Shown: positions 22,354 to 46,090 of the stretch, one piece after another
Layout: each line of letters starts with the position of its first letter
Position numbering within the stretch: the stretch's first letter is position 1
DNA from: Alphaproteobacteria bacterium
GTDB taxonomy: Bacteria; Pseudomonadota; Alphaproteobacteria; Bin95
Reading direction: 5' to 3'
DNA length: 64,000 nucleotides
Assembly: GCA_964291285.2 (NCBI GenBank)
Contig: OZ219787.1
Span: forward strand, 640,001-704,000
Notes under the pieces: model-generated
What the model was told of the DNA's origin: nothing
Databases searched by the model: none
What the model saw: only the letters and a program-made list of their open reading frames with translations
Program-made: the position numbers and the translations under genes

Positions 22354-22416
22354 CCTGTTCATATTTTTTGAATTATTTCTACTATAGAGCTTGATTTTTT
22401 AAAAGTTTATGGTAAT
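22354..22416 (+). promoter_or_regulatory. AT-rich promoter-like block at the start of element copy 1
   Basis: TTCA-N7-TGAA palindrome, then CTTGAT and GGTAAT, conserved with copy 2. Spacing is shorter than canonical sigma70, so promoter function is inferred. Confidence 0.45.
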
Positions 22417-22560
22417 TTGACCCTGAGGATGAGGGCGACGTTCGCGGGGCCGCCTCGTCTTCCGCGTCGGCGTCGGCGCGAAAAAAGCGGGGATTATCCG
22501 CTTGACTAAATGACGGCGAGTCCCCATATTCTGACTCAAGCAGTCGGAACGGAGGCCGTC

Positions 22561-23529
22561 ATGGCTGGCAAGCACTACCGCGAAGGCGTGACCATCATGG
22601 AGTTGGGAGAGATGTTCCCGACCGAGGAAAGCGCCCGCGAATGGTTTGAGGCGAAGGTCTGGCCGAACGGTCGCCATTGCCCGCGCTGCGGCCATACCGA
22701 GACGATTGAATGCACCGGCAACCCGCCGATGCCCTACTACTGCCCCGGCTGCAAGCGGCATTTCAGCGTCCGCATCGGCACCGTCATGGAGCGGTCCAAG
22801 CTCTCGTTCCGCAAGTGGGTTTGGGCGATCTACCTGCACCTGACTTCGCTCAAGGGCGTCTCCAGCGTGAAGCTGGGCCGGGACATAGGCGTCCGGCAGG
22901 CAACCGCATGGTTCATGCTCCAGCGCATCCGCGAAGCCTTCAAGCGCGACGACGAGCCGCCCATGGACGGGCCGGTAGAGGTGGACGAGGTCTATCTGGG
23001 CGGGCTGCGCAAGAACATGCACAAGGCGAAGCGGGAGAGCCTTGAGGGTCGCGGCGCTGTCGGCAAGGACATTGTCGTTGGCGTGAAGGACCGGGGCACG
23101 AAGCAGGTTCGCGCCCGCCATGTCCAGCACGCGGACGCGCCGTCGCTGGCAGGCTTCGCCGCTCACAACGCCCGCATCGGCACGACGGTCTATTCGGACG
23201 AGGCGACGGTCTATCGGGCGCTGCAAGTGTGGTTTCAGCATGAAGCGGTCAATCACTCCGCTGGCGAGTATGTCCGCCAGCAGGCGCATACCAACGGGAT
23301 CGAGAGCTTCTGGGCCATGTTGAAGCGGGCGCACAAGGGCGTCTATCACAAGTTCTCGCCGAAGCACCTTCACCGCTACATCGCGGAGTTCGCCGGGCGG
23401 CACAACATCCGCGAAGCCGGGACGCTGGCACAAATGGCGGGACTGGCGGCCGGCATGGTCGGGAAGCGCCTGACCTACGCCCGGCTGATTGCCGAGAACG
23501 GGCTGGCGAGCGGGGCGCGGCCATACTAG
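22561..23529 (+). CDS. IS1595 family (ISXO2-like) DDE transposase
   Basis: Zn ribbon CPRCG...YYCPGCKRHFSV, HTH, VEVDEVYLGG, VYSDE, HTNGIESFWAMLKR, YIAEF; GGAGG RBS before MAGKH. Confidence 0.96.
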   Translation: MAGKHYREGVTIMELGEMFPTEESAREWFEAKVWPNGRHCPRCGHTETIECTGNPPMPYYCPGCKRHFSVRIGTVMERSKLSFRKWVWAIYLHLTSLKGVSSVKLGRDIGVRQATAWFMLQRIREAFKRDDEPPMDGPVEVDEVYLGGLRKNMHKAKRESLEGRGAVGKDIVVGVKDRGTKQVRARHVQHADAPSLAGFAAHNARIGTTVYSDEATVYRALQVWFQHEAVNHSAGEYVRQQAHTNGIESFWAMLKRAHKGVYHKFSPKHLHRYIAEFAGRHNIREAGTLAQMAGLAAGMVGKRLTYARLIAENGLASGARPY

Positions 23530-24732
23530 TCACGCCTCTATCAGCCACGGGAACAGGGCGGCGCGCTTCTGCATACGCTCTTTCAGGAATTGCTCTTGCG
23601 AGCGCGTTCCCTTCGACGAATTGCAGGCGCCGCACAGCAGCCAAAGGTTCTCAAGGTGGTCGGTCCCGCCATGCGCTTGCGGGACGATATGGTCCACCGT
23701 CAGATTGCGCTTGCGGAAATGCTCCCCGCAACCGCCGCAAAAGCCTTCCTGCTGGCCGTAGAGCAAGTCCAGGTGCGTCCGGTAGTGGGGAAGGTCTCCC
23801 AGGTCCGTGCGGCCCGGCTGGTCCGTCCTGTGGACAACATCGCCGGTCTTGTAGAGCGGGATTTCGTCGAGGATGCCTTGCAGGCGCGTCGTGACGAGCT
23901 CGGCCGCCTTCGCGGAAATGTCGATGCCGATCCACTGGCGCTGTAGCCGCTCCGCCGCCACGGCGGCCGTCGCGCAACCGCAAAATGGGTCCAGCACGAC
24001 ATCGCCCTCGTTACTCGACGCCTTGATGATGCGGTCCAGAAGGGCAAGCGGCTTCTGCGTCGGATAGCCGACATATTGCGCCTTTTGGCGGGGCGCTATG
24101 GCGAGTCCATTTCCTTTCTCTTGCGGCCACCATGTTTCAGGGACTTTGCCGTCCGTCAGCCCATATTCGCCCTCGATAAATCCAGAACCGCGCAAACCGT
24201 CTTTGAAATTCGCCTTGGTCTTGCCATGGTGCTGAATACGCACGGCGTCGGCATTGAAGGTCCATGTCTCGCCGACTGAATACCAGTGGATTGTATCGTG
24301 CTTTCGGTTGAACTGGCGCATATGCGGTGAGCCGGGGCCAGTATAGCACCAGATAATCTCGTTCCGGTGATTAAGGCGTCCGAAAATCGCGTCCATGAGC
24401 ATCTTGAGATAATGCGACGCGAACGGGTCACAATGCAGATAGATGCTGCCGGTCGGCTTCAGGACACGCCGCATTTCGACGAGGCGTTGCGCCATCATGC
24501 CGAGATAGGCCGCCATGCCGCGCCCGTGCGCCAGCCGGGCCGCGTCGATTATGGCGAAAGTCGTCGGGTCACGCTCTTGCAGCAGTGCCAGATAGACGCG
24601 GTCCGCGTCGTCGAAGGTCCATGAGTCCTTGAAGGCAGCCCCGGCCGCCTCCGAGCCTATGGGTGCGCTATAGGTGCGGTTGGAGTTGAAGGGCGGGTCG
24701 AGATAGATGAGATCGACCGTGGCGCTGTTCAT
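23530..24732 (-). CDS. Site-specific N6/N4 DNA methyltransferase (beta class) fused to a C-terminal HNH endonuclease; true start probably further upstream
   Basis: Motif IV LIYLDPPF precedes YPTQKP and motif I LDPFCGCAT. The C-terminus CGGCG...LTVDHIVPQAHGGTDHLENLWLLCGACNSSKG is a Zn-binding HNH. The frame stays open upstream (NWRNRTIWTRDNLHVLRG) to TAG at 24820-24822. Confidence 0.9.
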   Translation of the reverse strand: MNSATVDLIYLDPPFNSNRTYSAPIGSEAAGAAFKDSWTFDDADRVYLALLQERDPTTFAIIDAARLAHGRGMAAYLGMMAQRLVEMRRVLKPTGSIYLHCDPFASHYLKMLMDAIFGRLNHRNEIIWCYTGPGSPHMRQFNRKHDTIHWYSVGETWTFNADAVRIQHHGKTKANFKDGLRGSGFIEGEYGLTDGKVPETWWPQEKGNGLAIAPRQKAQYVGYPTQKPLALLDRIIKASSNEGDVVLDPFCGCATAAVAAERLQRQWIGIDISAKAAELVTTRLQGILDEIPLYKTGDVVHRTDQPGRTDLGDLPHYRTHLDLLYGQQEGFCGGCGEHFRKRNLTVDHIVPQAHGGTDHLENLWLLCGACNSSKGTRSQEQFLKERMQKRAALFPWLIEA

Positions 24733-25167
24733 GCCTCTCAGGACATGGAGATTGTCGCGCGTCCAGATGGTGCGGTTGCGCCAGTTGGCTTCCTGCGTCG
24801 CCGCTGCGTCGCCTGCCTTCTACCCTATCAGATTTCCTCGCCATGCTTGATCTCCCGCTGTGAAGAGCACAGGCTAGGAGACGGGCTGATATTTAGTCAA
24901 ACGGATAATCCCCAAAAAAGCCGTTGAGAAACGGACGGGATAAGTGCGTCCCGTGCCACGCCCGCGGGCAGGTACAGGCGCAATCAGGCGCACGATACGC
25001 GCGGATAAGGGTCCCGCCGCCCGGATGAGCCGGCGGCGGAGAGGACGGAACGAAACCGGAGCGACAGGAAGAACCCATGCCGAAGACAGAGGGCCACCGA
25101 AACCGGATGGAATACCCGTACCCCATGCCCGAACGGACGACAGGGTATGCGTCGCGTGCATGCAAAC

Positions 25168-25240
25168 CATGACATCTCATGACACATCGCAGGAGAGGCT
25201 CGGGACGCCTCATGACAAAACATGACATCTCATGACATTC
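25168..25240 (+). repeat. Five CATGACA heptamers at 10-bp period, in two clusters
   Basis: Starts at 25168, 25178 and 25211, 25221, 25231. Confidence 0.9.
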
Positions 25241-25335
25241 CCGTGGAGTGGGCCCCTGGGTCGCTGCAGCCCTGCCGCACTGCCTCTGCCCGACTCCGGC
25301 CATGGTTTGCCGGCTCCGGGACCCGGCCCGTCGCG

Positions 25336-26136
25336 TCAGACCGCCTCCAGCGGCGGCGGAGGCGGCGGGTCGGCAAAGAGAGCCTGCGCCCCCACGATAT
25401 CGAGGTCATGCCCCGGCGAGCGGGCTATGGTGGCATGCACCGTGCCGGCGGCGAGTGCCATGGCCTCCGCCCAGCCGTCCCGCCACCGGGCCGCAAGCAG
25501 AGCGGCGAACAGGTCGCCCGCCCCGTAACCCGGATGCGCGACCTGCGGCACCACAGCCTGCCTGGCCTCGCCTTCCGATATGCCGACACAGGCGATGCGC
25601 CCCTCCCCCGCCGGGACGCTTGTCGCCACGACGAGGGAGGGCCCGAGCCCGGCGGCAACCTCGGCGGCTCGCGCCGGCCCGTCCACCTCCCGGGCCCCGA
25701 GCAGGGAAAGCTCGAACCGGTTGGGCGTTGCCGCCGCGGCCCGCGGCAGGAGTTCCCGCCGGATGGCTTCGGGCAGGTCCGGGGCCACGAACAGCCCCTT
25801 CGGATCGTCGCCCATGACCGGGTCGAGCAGGTAGGGCGCGCCCACACGGTCAACCGCGCGCGCCACCGCTTCCGCATTGGCGGCCGAGCCCAGATAGCCG
25901 GAAAGGACGAGATCGATGTCCTCCAGGAAACCGCGTTCCTCCAGCCCGCTCACAATGCGGTCGATGCTCTCGGCCGGATGCACCTCCCCCCGGAACCCGC
26001 CATGGGCGGGATGGTTGGAATAGGCGACCGTGTCGATGCAGGTGACCTGATGACCTAAGCGCTGGAGCACGAACACCGCCGTGCGATTGCCGACGAAACC
26101 GCGCGCCACCGAGGACTGGATCGATAGAATGTGCAT
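25336..26136 (-). CDS. pdxY: Pyridoxal kinase (PdxK/PdxY family)
   Basis: ILSIQSSVARGFVGN, DTVAYSNHPAHG, LSGYLG, DPVMGD, TPNRFEL, GAGDLF. Confidence 0.9.
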   Translation of the reverse strand: MHILSIQSSVARGFVGNRTAVFVLQRLGHQVTCIDTVAYSNHPAHGGFRGEVHPAESIDRIVSGLEERGFLEDIDLVLSGYLGSAANAEAVARAVDRVGAPYLLDPVMGDDPKGLFVAPDLPEAIRRELLPRAAAATPNRFELSLLGAREVDGPARAAEVAAGLGPSLVVATSVPAGEGRIACVGISEGEARQAVVPQVAHPGYGAGDLFAALLAARWRDGWAEAMALAAGTVHATIARSPGHDLDIVGAQALFADPPPPPPLEAV

Positions 26137-26185
26137 GATGTCCGCCCCGTCGCCGACGACTCGCCCGCACAAGGAATCCGCCTTC

Positions 26186-27061
26186 ATGCCCCAAGCCGTC
26201 AAGCCGCGCCGCAGCGCCCTCTACATGCCGGCCTCCCGCGCCGGCGCGCTGGAGAAGGCGAAGACGCTGCCTGCCGACGTGTTGATCTTCGACCTCGAAG
26301 ACGCCGTCAGCCCCGACGCAAAGGAAACGGCCCGCGCGCAGGCGGTGGCGGCGGCGCGTTCGGGAGCCTACGGGCCGCGCGAGATCGTCATTCGCGCCAA
26401 CGGCCTCGACACGCCCTGGGGGCACGACGACCTCGCGGCCATCGCCGGATCGGGCGCGGATGCGGCGCTGCTGGCGAAGGTCGAGAGCGAGGCGACGGTC
26501 CGCCAGGCCGCCGCCCTGCTCGAACGGCACGGCGCTCCTGCCGGAATGGCCGTCTGGGCGATGATGGAAACGCCGCTGGCCATGCTGCGCGCGGACGCTA
26601 TTGCAGGGGCCGGGCATCGCCTGTCCGCCCTCGTCATGGGCACGTCCGACCTGGCCAAGGAGCTGGGCGCGGCGCATACGCCGGACCGGCTGCCCTTCAT
26701 CACCGGGCTCGGCCTCTGCCTGCTGGCGGCGCGCGCCCACGGTCTCGCCGTCCTGGACGGGGTCCATCTGGACCTCGCCGACGACGAGGGATTCGCCGCC
26801 GCCTGCCGGCAGGGGGTCGAATTCGGCTTCGACGGCAAGACACTGATCCACCCGAAACAGGTCAGCCCCTGCAATGCCGCCTTCTCGCCGGGCCCCGGCG
26901 CCCTTGCCGAGGCGGAGCGGATCATCGCCGCCCATGCCGAAGCGGAGGCGGCGGGCCGGGGCGTCACCGTGGTGGACGGACGGCTGATCGAAAACCTGCA
27001 TGTCGAAATGGCGAGACGGACGGTCGCGCTCGCCGAAGCCGTCGCCGCGCGCCGGGGCTGA
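26186..27061 (+). CDS. CitE/malyl-CoA lyase-like CoA ester lyase (HpcH/HpaI family)
   Basis: RRSALYMPAS, DLEDAV, MMETP, MGTSDL, GFDGKTLIHPKQ. Confidence 0.92.
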   Translation: MPQAVKPRRSALYMPASRAGALEKAKTLPADVLIFDLEDAVSPDAKETARAQAVAAARSGAYGPREIVIRANGLDTPWGHDDLAAIAGSGADAALLAKVESEATVRQAAALLERHGAPAGMAVWAMMETPLAMLRADAIAGAGHRLSALVMGTSDLAKELGAAHTPDRLPFITGLGLCLLAARAHGLAVLDGVHLDLADDEGFAAACRQGVEFGFDGKTLIHPKQVSPCNAAFSPGPGALAEAERIIAAHAEAEAAGRGVTVVDGRLIENLHVEMARRTVALAEAVAARRG

Positions 27062-27129
27062 CACCGTGTGAGCGCAATGACACGGTTGTCGGCTAACATG
27101 CGCAATCCGGCTGGGGGACGCCCTTTCGC

Positions 27130-28503
27130 ATGACCTACCGCACCCTCCGTTCCTGGCTCGACCGGTTGCAGGCCACCGACCGGCTTGCTGTCGCCCGGCC
27201 GGGCGTTTCGCTGGATTTCACCCTCGCCGCGCTCGCCAAGCGGTGGGATGCGCAGAAGGCGGTGCTCTTCCCCGAGCCGCTCGGCCTCGACGGCCGCCGC
27301 CACGAGATACCGGTCGTCTCCGGCCTCGTCTCGGACCGGGGCTGGATTGCCGAGGCGATGGGCGTCGAGCCCGGCGCGGTGCTCGACCGTTTCCGCGCCG
27401 CAGCCGAGCAGCCGCTTCCCTGGCGGGAGGTGGCCGACGGCGCGTGCCAGGAACGCATCGACCGCAGCCCCGACCTCACGACCGCCCTTCCGATCCCGAA
27501 GCACAATGCGCTCGACGCCGGGGCCTATATCTCCGCGGGCCTCGTCATCGCGCGCAACCCGGGGACCGGCATCCAGAACGTCTCGATCAACCGCCTCCAG
27601 ATCACCGGGCCGAGGCGGATGGGCATCCTGATCCTGCCCCGCGACCTGCATCATTTCTTCGCGGCCGCCGAAGCAGCCGGGGAACCGCTCGACGTGGCCG
27701 TCGCGGTCGGCGTCGATCCGCTGACCCTGCTCGCCAGCCAGGCCATCCTGCCCATCGACCATGACGAGCTGGAGGTGGCGGGCGCGCTGCATGGCGCACC
27801 GCTGGAAGTGGTGAAATGCGCGACGAATGAAGTCCGCGTGCCCGCCGGTGCCGAGATCGTCGTCGAAGGGCGCCTGCTGCCAGGCGTGCGCGAGACCGAG
27901 GGGCCGTTCGGCGAGTTCCCGCAATATTACGGGCCTGCCGGCGAGCATCCGGCCATCGAGGTGCAGGCCGTGACGACACGCGAGAGGCCCGTCTTCCACA
28001 CCATCGTGCCGGCGGCGATGGAGCACCTGCTGCTTGGCGCCATCCCGCGCGAGGCCACCATCGCCGCGCATCTGCAGCGCACCTGCCCGACCGTGCTCGA
28101 CGTGCACCTCTCGCGCGGCGGCGTCTGCCGCTACCACCTCCACGTGAAACTGCGGAAGACACAGGAGGGCCAGGGGCGCAATGTCATCATGGCCGCCTTC
28201 GCCGCCCATGCCGATGTGAAGCAGGTGACGGTGGTGGACGAGGATGTCGACGTCCACGACCCGACGGCGGTGGAATGGGCGGTGGCGACCCGCTTCCAGG
28301 CCGGGCGCGACCTGTTCGTCGTCCCGCGCGCCCAAGGCTCGAAACTCGACCCCTCCGCGGACAACGGCGTCTCGGACAAGCTCGGTCTCGACGCCACCAT
28401 GCCGCTCGACCGCGACGGTTTCACCTACACCGTCGTCCATGTCCCCGGAGAAGACGACCCCGGCCTCGACACATTGCTCACCGACGAGCACTACGAGTTC
28501 TGA
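27130..28503 (+). CDS. UbiD family (prFMN-dependent) decarboxylase
   Basis: NVSINRLQ, EIVVEG, EGPFGEF, VVDEDVDVHD...WAVATR, KLGLDAT. Confidence 0.93.
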   Translation: MTYRTLRSWLDRLQATDRLAVARPGVSLDFTLAALAKRWDAQKAVLFPEPLGLDGRRHEIPVVSGLVSDRGWIAEAMGVEPGAVLDRFRAAAEQPLPWREVADGACQERIDRSPDLTTALPIPKHNALDAGAYISAGLVIARNPGTGIQNVSINRLQITGPRRMGILILPRDLHHFFAAAEAAGEPLDVAVAVGVDPLTLLASQAILPIDHDELEVAGALHGAPLEVVKCATNEVRVPAGAEIVVEGRLLPGVRETEGPFGEFPQYYGPAGEHPAIEVQAVTTRERPVFHTIVPAAMEHLLLGAIPREATIAAHLQRTCPTVLDVHLSRGGVCRYHLHVKLRKTQEGQGRNVIMAAFAAHADVKQVTVVDEDVDVHDPTAVEWAVATRFQAGRDLFVVPRAQGSKLDPSADNGVSDKLGLDATMPLDRDGFTYTVVHVPGEDDPGLDTLLTDEHYEF

Positions 28504-28540
28504 ACCGGCGGCGCGACTGCCCACAGGAGACCTCCGACCC

Positions 28541-29920: not shown

Positions 29921-29926
29921 CCGCCC

Positions 29927-30895
29927 TCAGTAGAACAGCTTTCTCCGGTCCATTCCCTCGTAGAGATGGGCCACGAACTCGCCATAGCCGTTGTAGAGCA
30001 GGGTCTTGCGGCGCTCGTCGGTGCCGATCATGCGCTCGGTCGCCTGGCTCCAGCGCCGGTGCGGCACCTCCGGGTTCACATTCGCCCAGAAGCCGTATTC
30101 GCGGCCCTGCACCTTCTCCCAGAAGCTCTTGGGCCGCTTCTCGGTGAAGGTGAAGCGGACGATCGACTTGATCGACTTGAAGCCGTATTTCCACGGCAGC
30201 GCGAGGCGCAGCGGCGCGCCGTTCTGGGCCGGCACCGGCTTGCCGTAGAGGCCGGTGACGATGAAGGCGAGCTCGTTGGTGGCCTCTTCCATGGTGACGC
30301 CCTCGACATAGGGCCACGGATACCAGAACTCCTTCTGGCCGGACGCCATGTCCGAGTCGTTGAAGGTCTCCATGCGGACATATTTCGCCTTGGCGAGCGG
30401 CTTCGCGAACTCGACCAGCTTCGCCATCGGGAAGCCGGACCAGGGCACCGCCATCGCCCAGGCCTCGACGCAGCGGTGGCGGTAAAGGCGCTCCTCGACG
30501 CCCATCTTGCGCACCAGGTCGTCGAACCCGATCTCGATGGGTTTTTCGACGTCGCCGTCGAGATGCACGGTCCAGGGGCGGATGCGCAGATTGTCGCGGG
30601 CGCGCTTCCAGATGCCCTTGCTGGAGCCGAATTCGTAGAAGTTGTTGTAGGTGGTCGCGACCTCTTCAGGCGTCAGCGGCCGGTCGAGCGTATAGGCCTC
30701 GTTACGCGGTCCCGGGTAGAGGTCGGCAGTCGGGTCCGATTCCGGCGTGGCGGCGCGCGCCGCAAGAGGCCATGCCGCCGCCGCGATGCTGCCGGCCGCC
30801 GCCGCCTGGATCAGCCGCCGCCTGTCGCGGAATACCGCCTCCGGCGTCGCCTCGCTCTCGGGCAGCTCCCAGCCCCGTCGTCTCAGGATCTGCAT
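29927..30895 (-). CDS. msrP: Protein-methionine-sulfoxide reductase catalytic subunit MsrP
   Basis: ATPEAVFRDRRRL Tat-like leader, YNNFYEFG, HRCVEAW, QNGAPLRL..PWKYGFKSIKSI, EYGFWANVNP. Confidence 0.95.
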   Translation of the reverse strand: MQILRRRGWELPESEATPEAVFRDRRRLIQAAAAGSIAAAAWPLAARAATPESDPTADLYPGPRNEAYTLDRPLTPEEVATTYNNFYEFGSSKGIWKRARDNLRIRPWTVHLDGDVEKPIEIGFDDLVRKMGVEERLYRHRCVEAWAMAVPWSGFPMAKLVEFAKPLAKAKYVRMETFNDSDMASGQKEFWYPWPYVEGVTMEEATNELAFIVTGLYGKPVPAQNGAPLRLALPWKYGFKSIKSIVRFTFTEKRPKSFWEKVQGREYGFWANVNPEVPHRRWSQATERMIGTDERRKTLLYNGYGEFVAHLYEGMDRRKLFY

Positions 30896-30967
30896 GCCGT
30901 GCACTCCTTTGCCCATCTTGACGCAACAAATGCGCGGGAAATGCCCCGGCCGCCAATCACTTTCCTG

Positions 30968-35733: not shown

Positions 35734-35739
35734 CCCGGC

Positions 35740-37235: not shown

Positions 37236-37268
37236 GAGCTCGTGTCCTTCGCAAATGGCCGGCGAGAC

Positions 37269-37826: not shown

Positions 37827-37875
37827 CTCCGTTCGTTGCGCCGCTTCGCCGCCAGCCAATGCGCTCTTCCCGGCT

Positions 37876-39525: not shown

Positions 39526-39560
39526 CCCCTGGCAGGGCGGTCGAGACGGCTCCCGCTGCC

Positions 39561-40298
39561 CTAGCCGCGCCCGATGAACGGCATGCCGTTCGCCATCACG
39601 GTCAGGAACGGCACATTGGCGTCCGGCGAGAGGCCCGCCATGTAGAGCACAGCGTCGGCCACATGGCGCACGTCCATCACCGGCTCGACCTTCGTGGAAC
39701 CGTCAGGCTGCAGCACGCCCTTTTTCATCCGCTGCGTCATAGGGGTCTCGGCATTGCCGATATCGATCTGGCCGCAGGTGATGCCGCAGGCCCGCCCGTC
39801 GAGGATGGTCGAGCGCGTGAGCCCGGTGACACCGTGCTTGGTCGCAGTGTAGGGCGCCGAGTTGGGGCGCGGCACATGGGCCGAGATCGACCCGTTGTTG
39901 ATGATCCGCCCGCCGGAGGGGTCCTGCGCCTTCATCACCCGGAAGGCTTCCCTCGTGCACAGGAAACTGCCGGTGAGGTTTGCGTCCACCACCGCCTGCC
40001 ACTGCGCGAGCGTCAGCTCCTCCAGCGGCACCGGAGGCGCGCCCGAGCCTGCATTGTTGAACAGGAGATCGACACGGCCGAACCGGGCAACCACCGCCTC
40101 GAACAGCGCTTTCACCTGCGCCTCGTCGCCGACATCGGTCGATTGCACCAGCGTGCGCTCCGGCCAGCGCCGGGCGACCTCCTCCAGCGGCTCCGCGCGC
40201 CGCCCGGCGAGCGCCACCTCATAGCCTGCACCCAGGAGCGCCTCCGAAGCGGCCTGCCCGACGCCCGTCCCGGCGCCGGTAACTATTGCAACCGGCAT
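39561..40298 (-). CDS. SDR family oxidoreductase
   Basis: [14 protein letters not shown], catalytic YTATK. Confidence 0.95.
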
Positions 40299-40407
40299 CG
40301 CGCTTTCCTCTCCCTCCTCGTCGAGCGGGGCACTCTAGAGCCTTTCTGCGCCGCACGGAAACGGTCTAGGCTAAGGGCCTGCACGGCATGACGGAGGCAG
40401 CGACCAG

Positions 40408-41298
40408 ATGAGTTCCGAGCAATTGGCGGCCCTGAAGGCCCTGCTTCGGGAACGCGGCAAACCGGAGAACCCGACAGTGCCCGAAATGCGCGCGCGCATC
40501 GCGGAAGTGGGCGAGCGGTTCCCCGCGCCGACGGAAGCGGAGGTAGCGCCGGTGACCGTCGCCGGCCGCTATGCGGAATGGATTGCCGCACCCGGCTGCT
40601 TCGCGGACCGCGCCGTGCTCTACCTGCATGGTGGCGGCTATGTCATCGGCTCCTGCGATTCGCACCGCAACCTGGCCTACAACATTGCCGCGGCGTCGAA
40701 AGCGAAAGTCCTGCTCCTCGACTACCGCCTCGCGCCGGAATCGCCCTTTCCCGCGGCGGTGGACGACGCGGTCGCCGCCTATTGCTGGCTGCTCGACGAG
40801 GGCTTTGCGCCAAGCCGGCTCTCGATAGCGGGCGACTCGGCGGGCGGCGGGCTCACCGTCGCTGCGCTCGTCGCATTGCGCTATCGCGGCCAGCCGATGC
40901 CGGCGGCGGGGCTGTGCCTGTCGCCCTGGGTGGATATGGAAGGCGTCGGCGCCTCGATGACGGCCAAGGAAGACGAGGACCCGACCCTGAACCACGAGGC
41001 GCTGCTCTGGTTCTCCGAGCGCTATCTTGCGGGCGCCGATCCGCGCGCGCCGCTCGCTGCGCCGATCTACGCCGACCTCGCGGGCCTGCCGCCGCTGCTG
41101 GTCTAGGTGGGCACCGCCGAAGTGCTGCTCGACGACTCGCTCCGGCTCGCCGAGCGCGCCCGCGCGGCGGGCGTCGATGTCAGCCTCGATGTCGCTCATG
41201 ACATGATGCATGTCTGGCACCTGTTCGAGCCGGTGCTGGACGAAGCGGGCGAGGCGATTGCCCGCGCCGGGGCCTTCCTGCGCGGGCGCATGCGGTGA
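40408..41298 (+). pseudogene. Alpha/beta hydrolase (HSL-family esterase) interrupted by an in-frame TAG
   Basis: HGGGY and GDSAGG precede TAG at 41104-41106 in LPPLLV*VGTAEVLLDD. The same frame continues to MMHVW and TGA at 41298. Confidence 0.88.
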
Positions 41299-43547
41299 TC
41301 GGGGAAAGCCTCCCGCGCCTTGAAGATGCGGCGCTGCTGACCGGCCGGGGCCGCTTCATCGACGATATAGACCTTGCCGGCCAGGCATGGGTGCGTTTCC
41401 TGCGCTCGCCCCACGCCCATGCCGACATCCTCGGCGTGGACGACGGCGAGGCGCTGAAGGCGCCGGGCGCGATCGCCCTGCTGCGCGACGGCCTGGAAAC
41501 CGGGCCGCTCGACAACCGCTCGCCGGTACGACGGCGCGACGGCGCGCCGCTGGCACCGCCGCCCTTCCCCGCGTTCGCGCGGGATCGGGTGCGCTATGCG
41601 GGCGAGATCGTCGCCATGGCGGTGGCGGAGACGGCGGCGGCGGCGCGCGACATGGCGGAAGCCGTCGCCGTGGATTACCGCCCGCTGGACGCGGCCGAAA
41701 CCGAAGAACTGTTCGAGTGGGAGAGGGGCGACGCCGCGGAGGTCGAGGCGCTGTTCACGGGCGCCGCGCACCGGGTCGGCATAAGCCTTGCGAACAACAG
41801 GATCAGCGCGGCGCCGCTGGAAACGCGGGGCGCGCTTGCCGAGTGGGACCCGCGGGACGGGCGCTACACGCTCATTGCGCCGACCCAGGGGCCGGGCCAG
41901 GTGCAGGAGGCGCTGGCGAAGGCGCTCGGCGCGGCGCGCGCCGACGTGCGCGTCATCACGCCCGATGTCGGCGGCGGCTTCGGCATGAAGAACGGCATCT
42001 TCGCCGAGCAGGTCCTGCTCGCCCAGGCAGCCCGGCTGCTCGGGCGGCCGCTGAAATGGATCGACGATCGCACCGAGGCTTTCCTCTCCGACTACCATGC
42101 CCGCGACCACGACACGGTGGCCGAGCTTGCGCTGGATGCCGAAGGGACTTTCCTTGCCATCCGCACCTCGACCCGGTCCGACCTCGGCGCCTATGCCACG
42201 GGCGCCGGGCCGATCATCCCGACCGACGGCGGCTCGCGGATGCTCGCCAATGTGTACCGCATCCCGGCGGTCCATGCCGAAACGGTCTGCCGCCTCAGCC
42301 ACACGACCCCGATCACGGCCTATCGCGGGGCAGGCAAGCCGGAATACGGCTATATCGTCGAGCGCCTTGTGGACGAGGCGGCGCGCCGGTTGGCCATCGA
42401 CCCGGCGGAGCTCCGCCGGCGCAACATGATCCGCCCCGAGGAGATGCCCTGGCGCACGCCGACAGGCCTCGTCTATGACAGCGGCGATTTCGCCGGCAAT
42501 CTCGACGCCGCGCTGGAACTGGCGGACCGCGCGGGCTTTGCCGGGAGGCAGCGCGCAAGCGAGGCCGCCGGGAAGCTGCGCGGCTTCGGCTTCGCCTCCT
42601 ATACGGAACCCGATGGCTACAAGGACGGGCGCGTGACGATGCGCTTCGACGAGGAGGGTCTGCTCACCGTCACGCTCACCGCCGCCAGCAACGGGCAGGG
42701 CTTCGCGACCACCTTCTCGCAGATCGCGGCGGCGCAATTGGGCCTGCCGGTCGATGCCGTTCGGGTGCTGACCGGCGACAGCGACATCGTCGGCCGCGGC
42801 AGCGGGGCGGGCGGCTCGCGCGTCACCACGGTGGCGGGCGCGGCGATGGTGCGGGCGAGCGAGCGCATCGTGGAGAAGGGCCGGCGCATCGCCGCCGCCA
42901 TGCTGGAGGCGAGCGAGGACGATATCGCCTTCGGGCAGGGCGCCTTCGAGGTCGTCGGCACGGACCGGCGGGTCGGGCTCAGGGAAGTGGCGGGGGCCAG
43001 CTTCAACCCGGCGTTCCTCGGTGAGGATATGGATATGGGGCTCGACGCCGCCGGCCATTTCAATGCCCGCACCTACAGCTTCCCGAACGGGACCCATGTC
43101 GCCGAGGTCGAGATCGACCCCGAAACCGGTCGGGTCTCGCTGGAGCGCTACAGCCTGGTCAACGATGCCGGCGTCGTCGTCAATCCGATGCTGCTGGAAG
43201 GCCAGTTGCACGGCGGCATCGCGCAAGGCGTCGGCCAGGCCCTGATGGAGCACATGGTTTACGAGCCGGAAACGGGCCAGCCCCTCTCCGGCTCTTTCAT
43301 GGACTACGCCATGCCGCGCGCAGCCGACATTCCGTCCTTCGCGCTGGAGCGGAGCCGGACGCCCTGCCTGACCAACCCGCTCGGAGTGAAGGGCGTCGGC
43401 GAAAGCGGCACCACGGCCGCCCTGCCGGCGGCGATGAACGCGGTGGCGGATGCGCTCGCCTCGGCCGGGGCCGCCTGCGTCCAGATGCCTGCCACGCCGG
43501 AGCGGGTCTGGCGCGCCCTCAGGGACCGGGCGCAGGAGATGGGATAG
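41295..43547 (+). CDS. Xanthine dehydrogenase / CoxL-family molybdopterin-binding large subunit
   Basis: RLEDAALLTGRGRFIDD, DVGGGFGMK, AYRGAGKPE, GQLHGGIAQGVG, GVKGVGESG. Confidence 0.94.
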   Translation: MIGESLPRLEDAALLTGRGRFIDDIDLAGQAWVRFLRSPHAHADILGVDDGEALKAPGAIALLRDGLETGPLDNRSPVRRRDGAPLAPPPFPAFARDRVRYAGEIVAMAVAETAAAARDMAEAVAVDYRPLDAAETEELFEWERGDAAEVEALFTGAAHRVGISLANNRISAAPLETRGALAEWDPRDGRYTLIAPTQGPGQVQEALAKALGAARADVRVITPDVGGGFGMKNGIFAEQVLLAQAARLLGRPLKWIDDRTEAFLSDYHARDHDTVAELALDAEGTFLAIRTSTRSDLGAYATGAGPIIPTDGGSRMLANVYRIPAVHAETVCRLSHTTPITAYRGAGKPEYGYIVERLVDEAARRLAIDPAELRRRNMIRPEEMPWRTPTGLVYDSGDFAGNLDAALELADRAGFAGRQRASEAAGKLRGFGFASYTEPDGYKDGRVTMRFDEEGLLTVTLTAASNGQGFATTFSQIAAAQLGLPVDAVRVLTGDSDIVGRGSGAGGSRVTTVAGAAMVRASERIVEKGRRIAAAMLEASEDDIAFGQGAFEVVGTDRRVGLREVAGASFNPAFLGEDMDMGLDAAGHFNARTYSFPNGTHVAEVEIDPETGRVSLERYSLVNDAGVVVNPMLLEGQLHGGIAQGVGQALMEHMVYEPETGQPLSGSFMDYAMPRAADIPSFALERSRTPCLTNPLGVKGVGESGTTAALPAAMNAVADALASAGAACVQMPATPERVWRALRDRAQEMG

Positions 43548-43612
43548 CGGTCCGGAACGGGCGGCCCCGTGGCCTGGCTCCGACGAAGGCGCTCCGAACA
43601 CCCCTCGCGATG

Positions 43613-43640
43613 TGTCATGAGATGTCATGAGATGTCATGA
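43613..43640 (-). repeat. Three TGTCATG (CATGACA) heptamers at 10-bp period
   Basis: TGTCATGAGA x2 + TGTCATGA at 43613, 43623, 43633. Confidence 0.9.
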
Positions 43641-43800
43641 TCCGCATGCGGGCGGCGCATATCCTGTGGTCCTTTCGGGCATGAGGCCGTTTCGCCGGAG
43701 CTGTGTTCGTCTGCATCCCCAATGTCGTTCCTCCACCGCGTTTCGTTCCGATTCGTTCCGTTCTCCCGCCGACCGGCCTGCCCGAGTGGCGGGACCCTAA

Positions 43801-45814
43801 CCCGACTTCCGCAACTCGGCTTGAGAATCGACTGATTTGACGGTTTTCCGGCGCGAGAAGTGTCGGATTTCGGTGCAGTACCTCTCGGGACCGGCTTGTA
43901 GTGCCGACCTACCCCCTTGATCGGGCTGGCGAAGATCCGGACGCTGCGCTGATGTTCGTGCGCTGCAAGAGACGCTTCAAGGACGGCAAGGAGCACCGCT
44001 ACTGGAGCGTTGTGGAGAACGTCCGGGTCCACGGCGGTCGGGTTGTTCAGCGTCAGGTGCTCTATCTCGGGGAGATCAACGACAGCCAGCGAGCGGCGTG
44101 GTGCCGCTCGATCGAGGTGGTGGAGGGCAAGTCGCGATCACGGCAGATGGCGCTGTTTCCCGAGGACCGGGAGGCGCCGGCGCTGACTTGCGAAGTGGTG
44201 AAGATCGACCTCTCGCAGGTGGCGCTTCACGACCCGCGCCAGTGGGGGGCGTGCTGGCTGGCGCTGTCCTTGTGGGACCGCCTGGACCTGGACCGCTTCT
44301 GGGAAGAGCGGCTGCCGGCGAGCCGGCAAGGCACGCGGTGGCTGGACATCCTGAAGATCCAGGTCTGCTACCGGCTGATCGACCCGGGCAGCGAGTGGCG
44401 CCTTCACCGTCACTGGTATGAGCACAGCGCGCTTCGCGATCTTCTGGGTGGCGAGCGGGCGATCGCCGACGACACACTCTATCGCTGTCTCGACAAGCTG
44501 CTGGCGCACAAGCAGGGCTTCTTCTCGTTTCTGCGCGACCGCTGGGCGACGCTGTTCGAGGCGCGCTTCGACGTGCTGCTCTACGACCTGACCTCGACCT
44601 ACTTCGAGAGCGATCCGCCGTTCGATGACAAGCGCCGCTTCGGCTACAGCCGGGACAAGCGGCCCGACTGCGTGCAGGTGGTGATCGCCCTGATCGTTAC
44701 GCCGCAGGGCTTTCCGCTGGCCTATGAGGTGATGCCGGGCAACACCTCCGACGACACCACGCTGGCGGCGTTCCTCAAGAAGATCGAGGATCAGTATGGC
44801 CGCTCCGAGCGGGTGTGGATCATGGACCGCGGCATCCCCACCGAGGAGACGCTGGCCGCGATGCGCGAGGGCGAGGCGCCGGTGCGCTACCTGGTGGGCA
44901 CGCCCAAGGGCCGGCTGACGCGGCTCGAGAAGGTGTTCCTGGGCCTGCCCTGGCAGGAGGTGCGCCAGTCCGTGACTGTCAAGCTTCTGGTCGAGGATGG
45001 CGAGCTCTACGTCCTGGTGCGCAGCGAGGGGCGGCAGGTGAAGGAACGCGGCATGCGCCGGCGCCGGCTGAAGAGGCTGTGGCGTCGATTGGCCGAGTTG
45101 CAAGGGCAGTCGAACAGCCGGGATCAGTTGTTGCTCAAGCTCGGCGCCGCCAGGAAGGAGGCCGGCCGGGCCTGGAGCCTGGTCGACATCACCGTGCCCG
45201 GGACCGACAGCGAACTCGCCGCCAACGGCTTCTCATTCCGCCTGCAGCGCGACCGGCTGCGCCAGGTCCGCCGCCGCGAGGGCCGTTACCTGCTGCGATC
45301 CAACATGGTCGCCGAAGACCCCGCCACGCTGTGGCATCTGTACATGCAGCTCGTCGAGATCGAGCAGGCGTTCAAGGAACTCAAGCACGACCTCGCGATC
45401 CGCCCCATCTTCCATCAGCGCCAAGAGCGCATCGAGGCGCATATCTTCGTCTCGTTCATCGCCTACTGCCTGCTGGTGACCCTGAAGAACCTCGCCCGGC
45501 CGCGCGCCCCGGGCCTCACCCCACGCGCCATCCTTGAGGCCTTCGCCACCATCCAGATGGTGGACGTCCATCTGCCAACCACCGACGGCCGGCACCTCGT
45601 CCTGCCGCGCCACACCCGGCCGAACAAGGAGCACGAGCTACTGCTGCAACAGCTCGGCATGACCTGGCCGCAGCAACCCGCACCCCGGATCTCCGCCTGA
45701 CGGCACACGGCGCCGCCTCTCCGTTCGCCGCCTTGTAGTGCCGACCCTCGGGGAGACGATCAAGGCTATTCAATGAGTTAGCATCCTCATGACCCCCGAG
45801 TTGCGGAAGTCGGG
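43801..45814 (+). mobile_element. IS1634-family insertion sequence, apparently intact
   Basis: Perfect 19-bp IRs CCCGACTTCCGCAACTCGG / CCGAGTTGCGGAAGTCGGG; flanking direct repeat CTAA at 43797-43800 and 45815-45818. Confidence 0.93.
43952..45700 (+). CDS. IS1634 family DDE transposase
   Basis: MFVRCKRRFKDGKEHRYWSVVEN, LLYDLTSTYFE, FGYSRDKRPD, WIMDRGIP, IEQAFKELK...RPIFHQ. Confidence 0.95.
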   Translation: MFVRCKRRFKDGKEHRYWSVVENVRVHGGRVVQRQVLYLGEINDSQRAAWCRSIEVVEGKSRSRQMALFPEDREAPALTCEVVKIDLSQVALHDPRQWGACWLALSLWDRLDLDRFWEERLPASRQGTRWLDILKIQVCYRLIDPGSEWRLHRHWYEHSALRDLLGGERAIADDTLYRCLDKLLAHKQGFFSFLRDRWATLFEARFDVLLYDLTSTYFESDPPFDDKRRFGYSRDKRPDCVQVVIALIVTPQGFPLAYEVMPGNTSDDTTLAAFLKKIEDQYGRSERVWIMDRGIPTEETLAAMREGEAPVRYLVGTPKGRLTRLEKVFLGLPWQEVRQSVTVKLLVEDGELYVLVRSEGRQVKERGMRRRRLKRLWRRLAELQGQSNSRDQLLLKLGAARKEAGRAWSLVDITVPGTDSELAANGFSFRLQRDRLRQVRRREGRYLLRSNMVAEDPATLWHLYMQLVEIEQAFKELKHDLAIRPIFHQRQERIEAHIFVSFIAYCLLVTLKNLARPRAPGLTPRAILEAFATIQMVDVHLPTTDGRHLVLPRHTRPNKEHELLLQQLGMTWPQQPAPRISA

Positions 45815-46026
45815 CTAATTCGCGCGTAATGTGCGCGCCCGCCCGCGCCTGCCCCCGCGCGCGTCTCGCGGCGGCGCGAATCGCGCGCCTGATTGCGCGC
45901 CCGCGCGCACGGGGCCCAAACGCAGGGCACACCTGTCCTGTCAGTTCCACAGAGGTCTTTGTTTCGCGCCGGCGCGACGCAGGAAATGAAGCAGCCCCGC
46001 GAATGCCGCTCCCCTCCTGCTGCCCT

Positions 46027-46090
46027 ATTCTAACACAATTTATCTCAGATCAAGTATCTAAGGAGAAATATTTCAAAAATAATGAACAGG
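46027..46090 (-). promoter_or_regulatory. AT-rich promoter-like block at the start of element copy 2
   Basis: Minus strand reads TTCA-N7-TGAA ... CTTGATC ... TGT-TAGAAT (extended -10-like), pointing into the element. Confidence 0.5.

What the first reader, a model, noticed from the sequence alone, without database searches (positions are those of the whole stretch)
22354..46090. Hidden two-copy ~450-490 bp non-coding element: candidate new structured RNA or mobile element family
Seen: removing IS1595 (22489-24921) and IS1634 (43801-45818) reveals two diverged, collinear, oppositely oriented copies of one element: 22354-22488+24922-25240 (+) and 43587-43800+45819-46090 (-). Hand-counted blocks: 32/42 identical in the AT-rich head, 34/40 at 25124-25163 vs 43644-43683, and 23/23 at 25168-25190 vs 43607-43629, separated by variable-length GC-rich linkers. 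Both copies lie between convergently transcribed genes (MMPL/pdxY; Mo-hydroxylase/iron permease), so the promoter-like head has no protein gene to drive. I see no credible ORF, clear terminal IRs or target duplication. Inference: a self-contained transcription unit for a ~400-nt ncRNA, or a non-autonomous element mobilised in trans. I do not recognise it as any known RNA family.
Basis: partly seen in the sequence, partly recalled or inferred. Interest (0 to 1): 0.9.

Follow-up and report, generated by a model that had tools for sequence, protein, structure and literature searches.

The report
Gene-less relics of terminase-like cassettes
The two "hidden non-coding elements" are gene-less copies of a roughly 90-copy family whose intact members encode a phage small-terminase-like DNA-binding protein, so they are remnants of an unusual dispersed gene cassette and not a new structured RNA.

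Summary
Both IS-split copies exist at the stated coordinates and are homologous.

They are not a two-copy element. The genome holds 137 profile hits and 92 promoter-bearing "heads" on all 5 contigs. The family occurs in 13 of 16 genomes of the genus.

Each unit has three fixed parts:
- an AT-rich head with a sigma70-like -35/-10 motif;
- a GC-rich leader of about 240 nt;
- a tail of CATGACA heptamers at a 10-bp period.

Ten G000 copies carry a 329-aa ORF between leader and tail. It has an SF6/SPP1-type small-terminase HTH domain and is under purifying selection. The window copies are ORF-less deletion derivatives.

No Rfam family matches. Only two short 5' hairpins show covariation.

My best reading is a DNA-level dispersed cassette whose terminase-like protein docks on the phased heptamers. 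How it spreads is unknown.

The scan had already met the heptamer tail and terminase-like gene in another genome (e1-914585). Three paper searches found nothing in print.

The parts
22356..22488 (+). Copy A, 5' part. Head starts at TGTTCAT (22356). AT-rich tract, -35-like TTGATT (22391-22396), 16-nt spacer, -10-like TAATTT (22413-22418), then the first leader hairpins.
   Evidence: Sequence read; profile hit to model positions 2-125; head alignment.
22489..24913 (+). IS1595-family insertion splitting copy A. It carries a transposase (22510-23529, +) and a passenger DNA methylase-HNH gene (23530-24732, -). 8-bp target duplication AAAAAAGC at 22481-22488 and 24914-24921.
   Evidence: Pfam DDE_Tnp_IS1595 E 1.1e-38 and Zn_ribbon_IS1595; N6_N4_Mtase E 4e-46 and HNH. 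Ends and duplication read and in the junction print.
24922..25249 (+). Copy A, 3' part. Leader core (GCAATCAGGCGC..., ATACGCGCGGATAAGGGTCCCGCC) and tail. The right terminus ends ...CCCGTGGAGT.
   Evidence: Profile hit to model positions 120-441 at C3:664914-665189; sequence.
25168..25237 (+). Copy A heptamer array: five CATGAC units starting at 25168, 25178, 25211, 25221 and 25231 (10-bp phase within each group).
   Evidence: unit starts.
43601..43800 (-). Copy B, 3' part: leader core from the TTAG site to the tail. Three TGTCATG units on the + strand at 43613-43639.
   Evidence: Profile hit to model positions 252-441.
43801..45814 (+). 4-bp duplication CTAA at 43797-43800 and 45815-45818.
   Evidence: Pfam DDE_Tnp_1 E 1.9e-13. 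The same IS sits at the same element position in two further copies.
45819..46088 (-). Copy B, 5' part. Head (TGTTCAT = reverse complement of 46082-46088), -35-like TTGATC (46048-46053), 15-nt spacer ending in TGT, -10-like TAGAAT (46027-46032), then leader hairpins.
   Evidence: Profile hit to model positions 1-255; sequence.

Best explanation
WHAT IT IS
The two window elements are ORF-less internal-deletion derivatives of a lineage-specific dispersed gene cassette. Each has since been split by an IS.

The intact cassette is about 1.3 kb. It has four parts:
- an AT-rich head with a sigma70-like promoter, mostly TTGACA-N15-TGnTATGAT;
- a GC-rich 5' leader of about 240 nt that begins with two hairpins;
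- a 329-aa ORF;
- a tail of 2-8 CATGACA heptamers spaced 10 bp apart that overlaps the stop codon.

The ORF has an N-terminal SF6/SPP1-type small-terminase HTH domain, a helical oligomerisation core and an acidic disordered tail.

HOW IT MOST LIKELY WORKS (inferred)
- The terminase-like protein assembles into a ring or oligomer.
- Its HTH domains, one DNA turn apart, dock on the phased heptamers of every copy, intact or gene-less.
- This gives about 90 protein-bound sites per genome.
- The short copies keep the cis parts (promoter, leader, heptamer tail). So they behave as non-autonomous members, served in trans by about 10 intact genes.

SHOWN VERSUS INFERRED
- Shown: the anatomy, the copy number, the homology of short and long copies, the fold and family of the protein, purifying selection, and presence/absence between species.
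- Inferred: protein-heptamer binding, promoter activity and the way copies spread. No transposase, TIR or regular target duplication was found.
For: FAMILY SIZE AND ANATOMY
- 137 profile hits and 92 heads.
- Head-to-tail lengths for the 92 heads: 45 at <=600 bp, 17 at 600-954 bp, 11 at 1123-1421 bp, 12 above 1.5 kb, and 7 with no tail within 6 kb. Of the 12, 8 were resolved as IS insertions.
- Of 121 heptamer clusters, 90 lie next to family hits. The commonest spacing is 10 bp, counted 252 times.

THE GENE
- 12 of 12 Terminase_2 matches in the genome lie inside family copies.
- Pfam Terminase_2 E 1.8e-11 on residues 11-71, and PHROG 51.
- Profile against PDB: 2cmp, the SF6 G1P DNA-binding domain, at E 1.5e-6.
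- Foldseek top hits are 3zqq, 4zc3 and 2cmp, with target-normalised TM-score 0.82-0.85 and 39-40% identity over 50-56 residues.
- dN/dS is 0.18 (residues 1-110), 0.31 (111-205) and 0.55 (206-329) over 152-153 pairs of 18 genes.

SHORT COPIES DERIVE FROM LONG ONES
- Short copies keep ORF N-terminal codons (...STRQEAFCRHYTAS) fused to the tail.
- Four such copies are >=88% alike and have unrelated flanks.
- At one orthologous site a relative has the gene-bearing form while G000 has a short copy plus an IS.

CONSERVED ARCHITECTURE IN RELATIVES
- 57 of 80 relatives' loci have the head/leader just upstream of the gene.
- 61 of 80 have CATGAC arrays on the gene strand, and 0 of 80 on the other strand.
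- Arrays persist in genera where the protein is only 45-59% identical.

PROMOTER
- 47 of 92 heads score >=9 of 12 against TTGACA/TATAAT. Shuffled heads give a mean of 10.8, and random genomic 120-mers give 33 of 3000.
- The -35 TTG and -10 A/T columns are conserved at about 0.9, while the spacer lies at 0.3-0.6.

OLIGOMER
- Four copies of residues 1-205 scored 0.45; the best of 3 controls scored 0.00. The runs agree in at least 72% of contacts and partner pLDDT is at least 65.
- That mark was reached by 20 of 30 proteins solved as pairs of one chain and by 1 of 23 solved as single chains.
- A similar ring is already solved, so the pass may only reflect that likeness.
- Passages of PMC4737164 state that adjacent HTH motifs in small-terminase rings lie about one B-DNA turn apart, and that the SPP1 pac site has direct repeats around the terminase gene start.

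GAIN OR LOSS
- A 1683-bp block holding an element is absent from G000 and is flanked by a 22-bp direct repeat.
- An 891-bp block is replaced by 23 bp in G000.
Against: - No experiment or RNA data shows that the promoter fires or that the protein binds the heptamers.
- The commonest -35/-10 spacer is 15 nt (31 of 47 good promoters). That is short for sigma70, although 26 of those carry TGn.
- No transposase, recombinase or nuclease domain was found in the cassette. No terminal inverted repeats were found.
- Target duplication is inconsistent: a 22-bp repeat in one case and none in another.
- Most short copies are old singletons: 47 of 73 have no partner at >=88% identity. Several copies sit at orthologous sites in different species. 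Spread is therefore rare or ancient, and in-place decay explains at least one short copy.
- SF6 small-terminase DNA-binding domains bind DNA largely without sequence specificity (title and passages of PMC4737164). Sequence-specific heptamer docking therefore cannot simply be assumed from the homology.
- The heptamer array also places a stop codon in all three forward frames in 65 of 73 tails. That is an alternative reason for its form.
Confidence: 0.6

Rival explanations
1. Pure in-place decay. Every short copy is a pseudogene relic of a gene copy that once sat at that locus. Short copies were never mobilised, and heads and tails stay alike through gene conversion between copies.
For: - At one orthologous site a relative (L064) has the 1280-bp gene-bearing form, while G000 has a 366-bp ORF-less copy plus an IS.
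- 47 of 73 uninterrupted copies are singletons below 88% identity.
- Copies are shared at the same sites between species.
- The heads of the 10 near-identical genes fall into three types, which suggests recombination between copies.
Against: - Four copies share one deletion junction (RHYTAS|TGSRGP), are >=88% alike and lie at four loci with unrelated flanks. Two further 3-copy subfamilies behave the same way.
- That means multiplication after the deletion.
- Random decay would not keep both ends in nearly all of the 73 copies.
Confidence: 0.2
2. A host-level function. The roughly 90 heptamer arrays plus terminase-like proteins act as a chromosomal network of pac-like sites. They might start phage- or GTA-type packaging of host DNA, or act as decoys that mislead an infecting phage's terminase (a defence role).
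For: - The closest solved relatives are pac-recognising small terminases of SPP1-like phages.
- The arrays lie in or next to the terminase-like gene, as pac does in SPP1 (passages of PMC4737164).
- The genes are under purifying selection and are kept at orthologous sites across species.
- Copies are spread over all 5 contigs at 6.7-18.1 per Mb.
Against: - No Terminase_6N, TerL_ATPase or Terminase_3 match was found in this 100%-complete genome.
- There is only one marginal TerL_nuclease ORF (25 bits against a cut-off of 24), and it is not adjacent to a family copy.
- Viral contigs hold only distant HTH-only relatives: 26-53% identity, confined to the N-terminal region, mostly about residues 10-70.
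- No phage record resembles the cassette.
Confidence: 0.12
3. One reading: a self-contained transcription unit for a ~400-nt structured non-coding RNA.
For: - The promoter-like head is conserved in copies without any ORF.
- Two short hairpins at the start of the leader show compensatory changes. There are 25 double-change cells against a shuffled mean of 10.7, with 0 of 500 shuffles as high. Helices 1 and 2 hold all 8 covarying pairs.
Against: - No Rfam match.
- The consensus fold is only -17.7 kcal/mol, with a covariation term of -0.57 and 21 pairs in 421 columns. An offline alifold of 75 leaders gave -11.9.
- Helices 3 and 4 never covary.
- The region between leader and tail varies from about 0 to 1000 bp and is ORF debris.
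- In intact copies the same leader is a 5' UTR with a Shine-Dalgarno-like AGGAG before the ATG.
- The tool warns that related sequences can beat its shuffles without any structure.
Confidence: 0.05
4. The heptamer arrays are binding sites of a host regulator or replication protein (Pho-box-like response-regulator sites or iterons), unrelated to the neighbouring gene.
For: TGTCAT resembles the Pho-box half-site (recalled). Direct repeats at about one helical turn are typical of OmpR/PhoB-type regulators and of iterons (recalled).
Against: - The period is 10 bp, counted 252 times. An 11-bp spacing was seen only twice. The Pho box has an 11-bp period (recalled).
- The arrays sit at the 3' ends of ORFs, not at the -35 regions of promoters.
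- They are tied to the terminase-like gene across genera.
Confidence: 0.03

Closest known systems
Small terminase G1P of SPP1/SF6-type phages and its pac site
   Same: - The N-terminal HTH domain matches by Pfam, by sequence to PDB entries (2cmp, 4zc3, 3zqp) and by fold.
- A helical core follows the HTH and is predicted to self-associate.
- Direct repeats lie in or next to its own gene.
- The 10-bp repeat spacing equals the roughly one-turn spacing of HTH motifs in small-terminase rings (PMC4737164, passages).
   Different: - It is chromosomal, multicopy (10 intact genes and about 80 gene-less copies) and not next to a large terminase or phage structural genes.
- It has a long acidic disordered C-terminal half.
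- The repeats lie at the 3' end over the stop codon, not at the gene start.
- No close relative was found in viral collections.
MITEs and other non-autonomous deletion derivatives of transposable elements
   Same: - The short copies are internal-deletion derivatives that keep both ends of a longer coding element.
- They outnumber the longer element about 8 to 1, are intergenic (40 of 41), and some multiplied after the deletion.
   Different: - No terminal inverted repeats and no regular target duplication were found.
- The long form encodes no recognisable transposase.
- Most copies are old and fixed at orthologous sites.
REP/BIME-type intergenic repeats as IS landing pads (recalled: IS1397 and some IS110-family elements target REPs)
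   Same: - It is a dispersed intergenic repeat hit repeatedly and site-specifically by ISs.
- An IS110-family element lies at the identical leader position in 4 copies, and a DDE_Tnp_1 IS lies at one TTAG in 3 copies.
   Different: It is about ten times longer than a REP. It is not a simple palindrome, it carries a promoter, and it derives from a protein gene.
Earlier finding of this scan, e1-914585 (another genome)
   Same: It describes three TGTCATG motifs one DNA turn apart capping small terminase-like genes in sponge-associated alphaproteobacteria, read as a docking site. I re-found the gene-array link here independently of that genome.
   Different: - That note did not describe the promoter head, the long leader, the ORF-less derivatives or the IS hot spots.
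- Its genome has the short-leader form of the family.

Membership tests
Any Rfam RNA family | Covariance-model match at or near the family's gathering score | tested here: not met
   On the window at gathering score, only 3 tRNAs matched. On 20 intact copies at E<=1, only a neighbouring tRNA matched.
Structured ncRNA (generic) | A conserved secondary structure with covariation along the molecule | tested here: not met
   21 pairs in 421 columns at -17.7 kcal/mol. Covariation is confined to two 5' hairpins (10 pairs, 8 covarying), and helices 3-4 have none.
MITE | Terminal inverted repeats | tested here: not met
   Ends aligned in three recent subfamilies and in the 10 gene copies. The left end is ...TGTTC and the right end is CATGACAYNNYGCNNGGAGT. 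An inverted heptamer-like ATGAACA occurs at only 10 of 92 heads.
MITE | Target-site duplication of fixed length | tested here: inconclusive
   Only two filled-versus-empty comparisons were possible. One showed a 22-bp direct repeat around a larger 1683-bp block. The other showed none.
MITE | An autonomous partner encoding a transposase | tested here: not met
   The long form encodes only the Terminase_2-domain protein; no transposase domain was found. Whether that protein acts in mobility is unknown.
Phage small terminase (Terminase_2, SF6 G1P type) | N-terminal HTH DNA-binding domain of the family | tested here: met
   Pfam at 45.2 bits against a cut-off of 26.1. PDB profile hit 2cmp at E 1.5e-6. 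Fold match with target-normalised TM-score 0.82-0.85.
Phage small terminase (Terminase_2, SF6 G1P type) | Ring-forming oligomerisation core | tested here: inconclusive
   Self-association score 0.45 against a best control of 0.00, with the interface on helices 68-110. Only 4 copies could be folded, and the pass may be memory of solved rings.
Phage small terminase (Terminase_2, SF6 G1P type) | Encoded next to a large terminase in a phage, prophage or GTA packaging module | tested here: not met
   No Terminase_6N, TerL_ATPase or Terminase_3 in the genome. The one marginal TerL_nuclease ORF at C2:~89.8-91.4 kb is about 12.7 kb from the nearest copy.
Pho box / OmpR-family direct-repeat sites | Two 7-bp repeats at an 11-bp period overlapping the -35 region of regulated promoters (definition recalled) | tested here: not met
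   The period is 10 bp (252 spacings; an 11-bp spacing seen twice). The arrays lie at the 3' ends of ORFs.
REP/BIME | 20-40-bp imperfect palindromic units, often with a RAYT transposase in the genome (recalled) | not tested
   The unit is 355-1421 bp and is not a palindrome. No search for a RAYT gene was run.

The most novel reading that the evidence does not exclude
The cassette is a new kind of bacterial mobile or self-propagating element. It uses a domesticated small-terminase-like ring protein, instead of a classical transposase, to recognise its phased-heptamer end. Equivalently, it may be a chromosome-wide set of about 90 pac-like sites that channels packaging or blocks phage terminases in sponge symbionts. 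Either way the gene-less copies would be working cis sites rather than junk.
Probability: 0.25. Interest if true: 0.85.

Novelty: new variant of a known kind. Interest (0 to 1): 0.6.

Why it matters
- It replaces a "new structured RNA" claim with a concrete, testable object. That object is a lineage-specific family making up roughly 1% of the genome of uncultured sponge-associated alphaproteobacteria.
- The family is built around a phage small-terminase DNA-binding module that has left the phage context and multiplied.
- If the protein docks on the phased heptamers, this is a natural case of a ring of HTH domains reading sequence repeats one helical turn apart. That bears on how small terminases recognise pac sites.
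- The family also marks synteny breaks between species. Of 32 relatives' elements with both flanks present in G000, 14 have flanks on different contigs and 3 more lie over 30 kb apart.
- It is a preferred landing site for at least three IS types, so it shapes genome structure in these symbionts.
- For annotation, these genes are currently labelled "terminase small subunit" in MAGs. That label could be misread as prophage evidence.

Tried and rejected
RNA EVIDENCE
- The look-up of sequencing runs found one RNA run (X24, contigs only, 9% of words).
- Laid on an 18.5-kb stretch holding a short and a gene-bearing copy, X24 covered all 30 bins at roughly even depth. The repeat bin was raised in the DNA runs as well.
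- Contigs cannot show starts, strand or level, so this says nothing about transcription.

DATABASE LOOK-UPS
- PLSDB plasmids (blastn distant): no match.
- Phage records: no match.
- Paper searches on sponge symbiont plus terminase small subunit plus repeat, on the heptamer itself, and on "TerS-like" terms gave nothing relevant (listings only).

TIR LEAD
- An apparent 28-30-nt inverted repeat bounds the 1683-bp block in L096. The repeat tool did not report it, and its motif has 0 hits in G000. I dropped it.

LEFT-END HEPTAMER
- ATGA[AC][AC]A occurs near 15 of 92 heads in direct orientation and 10 of 92 in inverted orientation, against a shuffled mean of 0.9.
- It is real for some subfamilies but not general, so I do not use it as a defining end.

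EMPTY-SITE SEARCHES THROUGH genome search
- The MMPL/pdxY locus and one other locus gave shared copies and rearranged flanks, but no clean empty site.

METHOD CAVEATS
- My first promoter regex (spacer 16-18 only) found 9 of 92. It missed the dominant 15-nt spacer, and one search replaced it.
- My home-made gene caller is crude. It mis-called the strand of the kinase gene at 25336-26202. The context counts are therefore approximate.
- The orientation bias (downstream gene on the same strand in 26 of 41) is weak. I do not read the element as a promoter donor for neighbouring genes.

Full report
1. THE OBSERVATION

- Reading the sequence, 25168-25190 is the exact reverse complement of 43607-43629 (23 of 23). 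25124-25163 matches 43644-43683 at 34 of 40.
- blastn of the IS-free reconstructions gives a collinear chain of blocks: 84% over 64, 79% over 78 and 73% over 138 nt.
- The excised stretches are each an IS plus one copy of its target duplication.
  - An IS1595-type element lies at 22489-24913 with 8-bp AAAAAAGC on both sides.
  - A DDE_Tnp_1 element lies at 43801-45814 with CTAA on both sides.
- The flanking genes are as described and convergent.

The "two-copy" part is wrong.
- blastn with the two copies hits 120 loci on all five contigs.
- A profile built from 32 full-length genomic copies plus the two reconstructions finds 137 hits at E<=1e-5. Of these, 92 begin at the AT-rich head and 41 are full-length short copies.
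- Heads are split 46/46 between strands. They occur at 6.7-18.1 per Mb on every contig.

2. ANATOMY

The consensus and the 92 aligned heads show the following parts.
- TGTTC, then an AT-rich tract.
- A -35-like TTGAC(A) and a -10-like TATGAT or TAnnAT.
  - 47 of 92 heads score at least 9 of 12 against the E. coli hexamers. Shuffled heads give a mean of 10.8, and random genomic 120-mers give 33 of 3000.
  - The spacer is mostly 15 nt (31 of 47), and 26 of those carry an extended -10 TGn.
  - The hexamer columns stay at about 0.9 conservation, while the spacer and upstream tract drift to 0.3-0.6.
- A GC-rich leader with invariant cores. GCAATCAGGCGCGCGA occurs 79 times in the genome.
- A tail of CATGAC(A) heptamers.
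  - There are 121 clusters in the genome, 90 of them next to family hits. A 10-bp spacing was counted 252 times, against 22 for the next most common.
  - Tails hold 2-8 units, most often 3 or 5. They place a stop codon in all three forward frames in 65 of 73 tails.
- Head-to-tail length is a continuum. Of the 92 heads: 45 at <=600 bp, 17 at 600-954 bp, 11 at 1123-1421 bp, 12 above 1.5 kb, and 7 with no tail within 6 kb. Of the 12, 8 were resolved as IS insertions.

3. THE MISSING GENE

The heptamer clusters that were not next to a profile hit led to ORFs that end inside an array.

Ten G000 copies carry a 329-aa ORF between leader and tail. It ends ...PDHDKT-stop, where CAT GAC AAA ACA TGA is the array itself.

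Evidence on the protein:
- Pfam Terminase_2 at E 1.8e-11 on residues 11-71, and PHROG 51.
- All 12 Terminase_2 matches in the genome lie in family copies.
- A profile of 25 family proteins hits the SF6 G1P DNA-binding domain in the PDB at E 1.5e-6.
- An AlphaFold model has mean pLDDT 66.7, above 80 for about residues 10-100, with helices at 146-198 and a disordered C-terminal half.
- Its best Foldseek hits are the SF6 small terminase entries 3zqq, 4zc3 and 2cmp. The target-normalised TM-score is 0.82-0.85 with 39-40% identity over 50-56 residues, though formal E-values are only 0.02-0.08.
- Four copies of residues 1-205 are predicted to associate through helices 68-110. The score is 0.45 and the best of 3 controls is 0.00. 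The runs agree in at least 72% of contacts and partner pLDDT is at least 65. That mark was reached by 20 of 30 proteins solved as homomeric pairs and by 1 of 23 solved as single chains. Small-terminase rings are already solved, so the pass may only reflect that likeness.
- The gene is under purifying selection. Median dN/dS is 0.18 for residues 1-110, 0.31 for 111-205 and 0.55 for the acidic tail, at dS of about 0.45-0.5, over 152-153 pairs of 18 genes.

Other cargo between head and tail:
- Three copies carry an unrelated acidic 218-aa ORF with no Pfam family.
- One copy brackets an isochorismatase-family gene.

4. SHORT COPIES ARE DELETION DERIVATIVES

- Several short copies still read ...(A)LSTRQEAFCRHYTAS, the ORF's N-terminus, fused to tail-proximal sequence.
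- Four of them share one junction, are at least 88% alike and lie at four loci with unrelated flanks. Gene-less copies therefore multiplied after the deletion.
- Against that, 47 of 73 uninterrupted copies are singletons below 88% identity.
- At one orthologous site a relative (L064) has the gene-bearing form while G000 has a 366-bp copy plus an IS. So decay in place also happens.
- The window's copies A (about 460 bp) and B (about 470 bp) are of the gene-less kind.

5. DISTRIBUTION

- The family is present in 13 of 16 other genomes of the genus.
- It gives one weak hit among 8 genomes of two sister genera, and two weak hits among 16 other families of the class.
- A protein-guided scan of one genome per species found 118 relatives. 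All lie in uncultured alphaproteobacterial MAGs, some named from sponges.
- Of the 80 loci kept, 57 have the head/leader directly upstream of the gene. 61 have CATGAC arrays on the gene strand and none has them on the other strand.
- In more distant genera (45-59% protein identity) the long leader is missing. A TTGnnn-N15-17-TAtAnT motif sits about 40 nt before the ORF, and the 10-bp arrays are still at the 3' end.
- The wide protein search gave 375 clusters. The only names given are automatic "terminase small subunit" labels on MAG proteins.
- Viral contigs contain only distant relatives, at 26-53% identity and confined to the N-terminal region, mostly about residues 10-70.
- No phage or plasmid record resembles the DNA.
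- The genome has no Terminase_6N, TerL_ATPase or Terminase_3 match. It has one marginal TerL_nuclease ORF.

6. IS IT AN RNA?

- No Rfam family matches the window at gathering score.
- None matches 20 intact copies at E<=1, apart from a neighbouring tRNA.
- RNAalifold on 33 leaders from 2 or more species groups gives -17.7 kcal/mol, with 21 pairs in four short helices over 421 columns.
- An offline run on 75 non-redundant leaders gave -11.9.
- Counting pairs: 25 double-change cells against a shuffled mean of 10.7, with 0 of 500 shuffles as high. All 8 covarying pairs lie in the two hairpins at the very start of the putative transcript, and helices 3 and 4 never covary. The tool warns that related sequences can beat its shuffles without any structure.
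- I read these hairpins as 5'-UTR or DNA hairpins of a protein-gene leader, not as a large structured RNA.
- Direct RNA evidence could not be obtained (see Tried and rejected).

7. GAIN, LOSS AND ENDS

- Using the relatives' loci against the full G000 genome, 54 elements had usable flanks and 32 had both flanks in G000.
- Of those 32, 14 map to different contigs and 3 more lie over 30 kb apart. Copies often sit at synteny breaks.
- Shared occupied sites include L022, L064, L066, L077, L080 and L093. The MMPL-side head of copy A is shared with G007, and a full copy lies next to the kinase gene in G006.
- Three sites are empty in G000.
  - L096: a 1683-bp block holding a 1323-bp gene-bearing copy is flanked by a 22-bp direct repeat of a hairpin-like sequence that is single in G000.
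  - L032: 891 bp (one copy plus a partial second copy) replaces 23 bp, with no duplication.
  - L072: not resolved.
- Ends defined from recent subfamilies are ...TGTTC on the left and CATGACAYNNYGCNNGGAGT on the right. I found no inverted repeats.
- The way copies spread is therefore unknown.

8. MECHANISM I COMMIT TO (confidence about 0.6)

- It is a DNA-level dispersed cassette.
- Its promoter drives a small-terminase-like protein.
- That protein oligomerises and docks its HTH domains on the heptamers spaced one helical turn apart.
- Gene-less copies, including the two in the window, keep the cis parts and are served in trans.
- The spacing argument rests on passages of PMC4737164. They state that adjacent HTH motifs in small-terminase rings are about one turn of B-DNA apart, and that the SPP1 pac region has direct repeats around the terminase gene start. 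The same paper reports largely sequence-independent binding by the SF6 domain, which is a caution.
- Rivals are in-place decay only (0.2), a host-level pac-like or decoy network (0.12), a structured ncRNA (0.05) and regulator sites or iterons (0.03).

9. NOVELTY

- Three full-text searches found no description (listings only).
- The scan itself met the tail and the gene before, in another genome (e1-914585).
- New here are the promoter head and long leader, the gene-less derivatives that outnumber the genes about 8 to 1, selection on the protein, the presence/absence cases and the IS hot spots.
- I class it as a new variant of a known kind: non-autonomous derivatives of a dispersed element.
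- I give 0.25 probability that the parent is a truly new kind of element or chromosomal system.

Noticed in passing
G000 C1:640190-641314 (L204); also C2:~876820-877944, C3:~1276528-1277652, C2:~1145192-1148469: A 1124-bp IS110-family element (DEDD_Tnp_IS110 E 5.7e-24, Transposase_20 E 5.5e-20) sits at exactly the same leader position in 4 copies. That position is between ...GGAGA and AGGTGCG (model position 147). The orientation is always the same, opposite to the host element. It looks like sequence-programmed targeting of this repeat.
   Followed up: partly
window 43797-45818; G000 C3:~941317-943369; C4:~195437-199366; C2:~344442: The 2.0-kb DDE_Tnp_1 IS of copy B is inserted at the same TTAG of the conserved GCGCGAATTAGGGTCC motif in at least 3 copies, in both orientations. 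It also lies at a CTAA in the -10 region of another copy.
   Followed up: partly
window 23530-24732 (-): The IS1595-type element carries a passenger gene: a DNA methylase (N6_N4_Mtase, E 4e-46) fused to an HNH nuclease domain.
   Followed up: no
window 25249-25275; G000 C2:~1256615, C2:~1109890, C1:~734690: Directly after the right terminus (...GGAGT) several copies abut TGGGCCCCTGG...GGACAGTTT, which looks like an IS3-type end. At C2:1256615 it is followed by an IS3 OrfA-like reading frame. After window copy A only a short remnant is seen.
   Followed up: no
G000 C3:1747463-1748585 (L035): One head and one heptamer tail bracket an isochorismatase-family gene (Pfam E 3.1e-25) instead of the terminase-like ORF. 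This is either cargo exchange or a chance juxtaposition of a head and a solo tail.
   Followed up: no
G000 C2:1233486-1234439, C1:735640-734698, C2:331493-332432 (L034, L042): Three copies carry a second cargo. It is an acidic 218-aa protein with repeated DYDGSEDE..TPEF.AW motifs and no Pfam or PHROG family, and it also ends ...EHDKT in the array.
   Followed up: no
P0001 residues ~303-316: Some family proteins have a KKQKKKKGKKRR patch after the acidic region. Others have long D/E runs instead. This is a basic cluster in a protein of an animal symbiont, and its meaning is unknown.
   Followed up: no
L013:771-828 (G000 C1:~361580): A tRNA gene lies about 90-140 bp downstream of one gene-less copy, on the same strand.
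   Followed up: no
flanks of many copies, e.g. G000 C1:~227545-227590; L093, L094 and L096 downstream of tails: Small GC-rich hairpin repeats (for example GTCGCCCCCGCGAAGGCGG...) recur next to heads and tails. A second, shorter repeat family may be interleaved with this one.
   Followed up: no
G000 C2:~89851-91431 (L134): This is the only large-terminase-like ORF in the genome (526 aa, TerL_nuclease at 25 bits against a cut-off of 24). Its neighbours have no Pfam family.
   Followed up: partly
window 686-758, 7112-7194, 59593-59681 (-): Three tRNA genes were found by Rfam.
   Followed up: no
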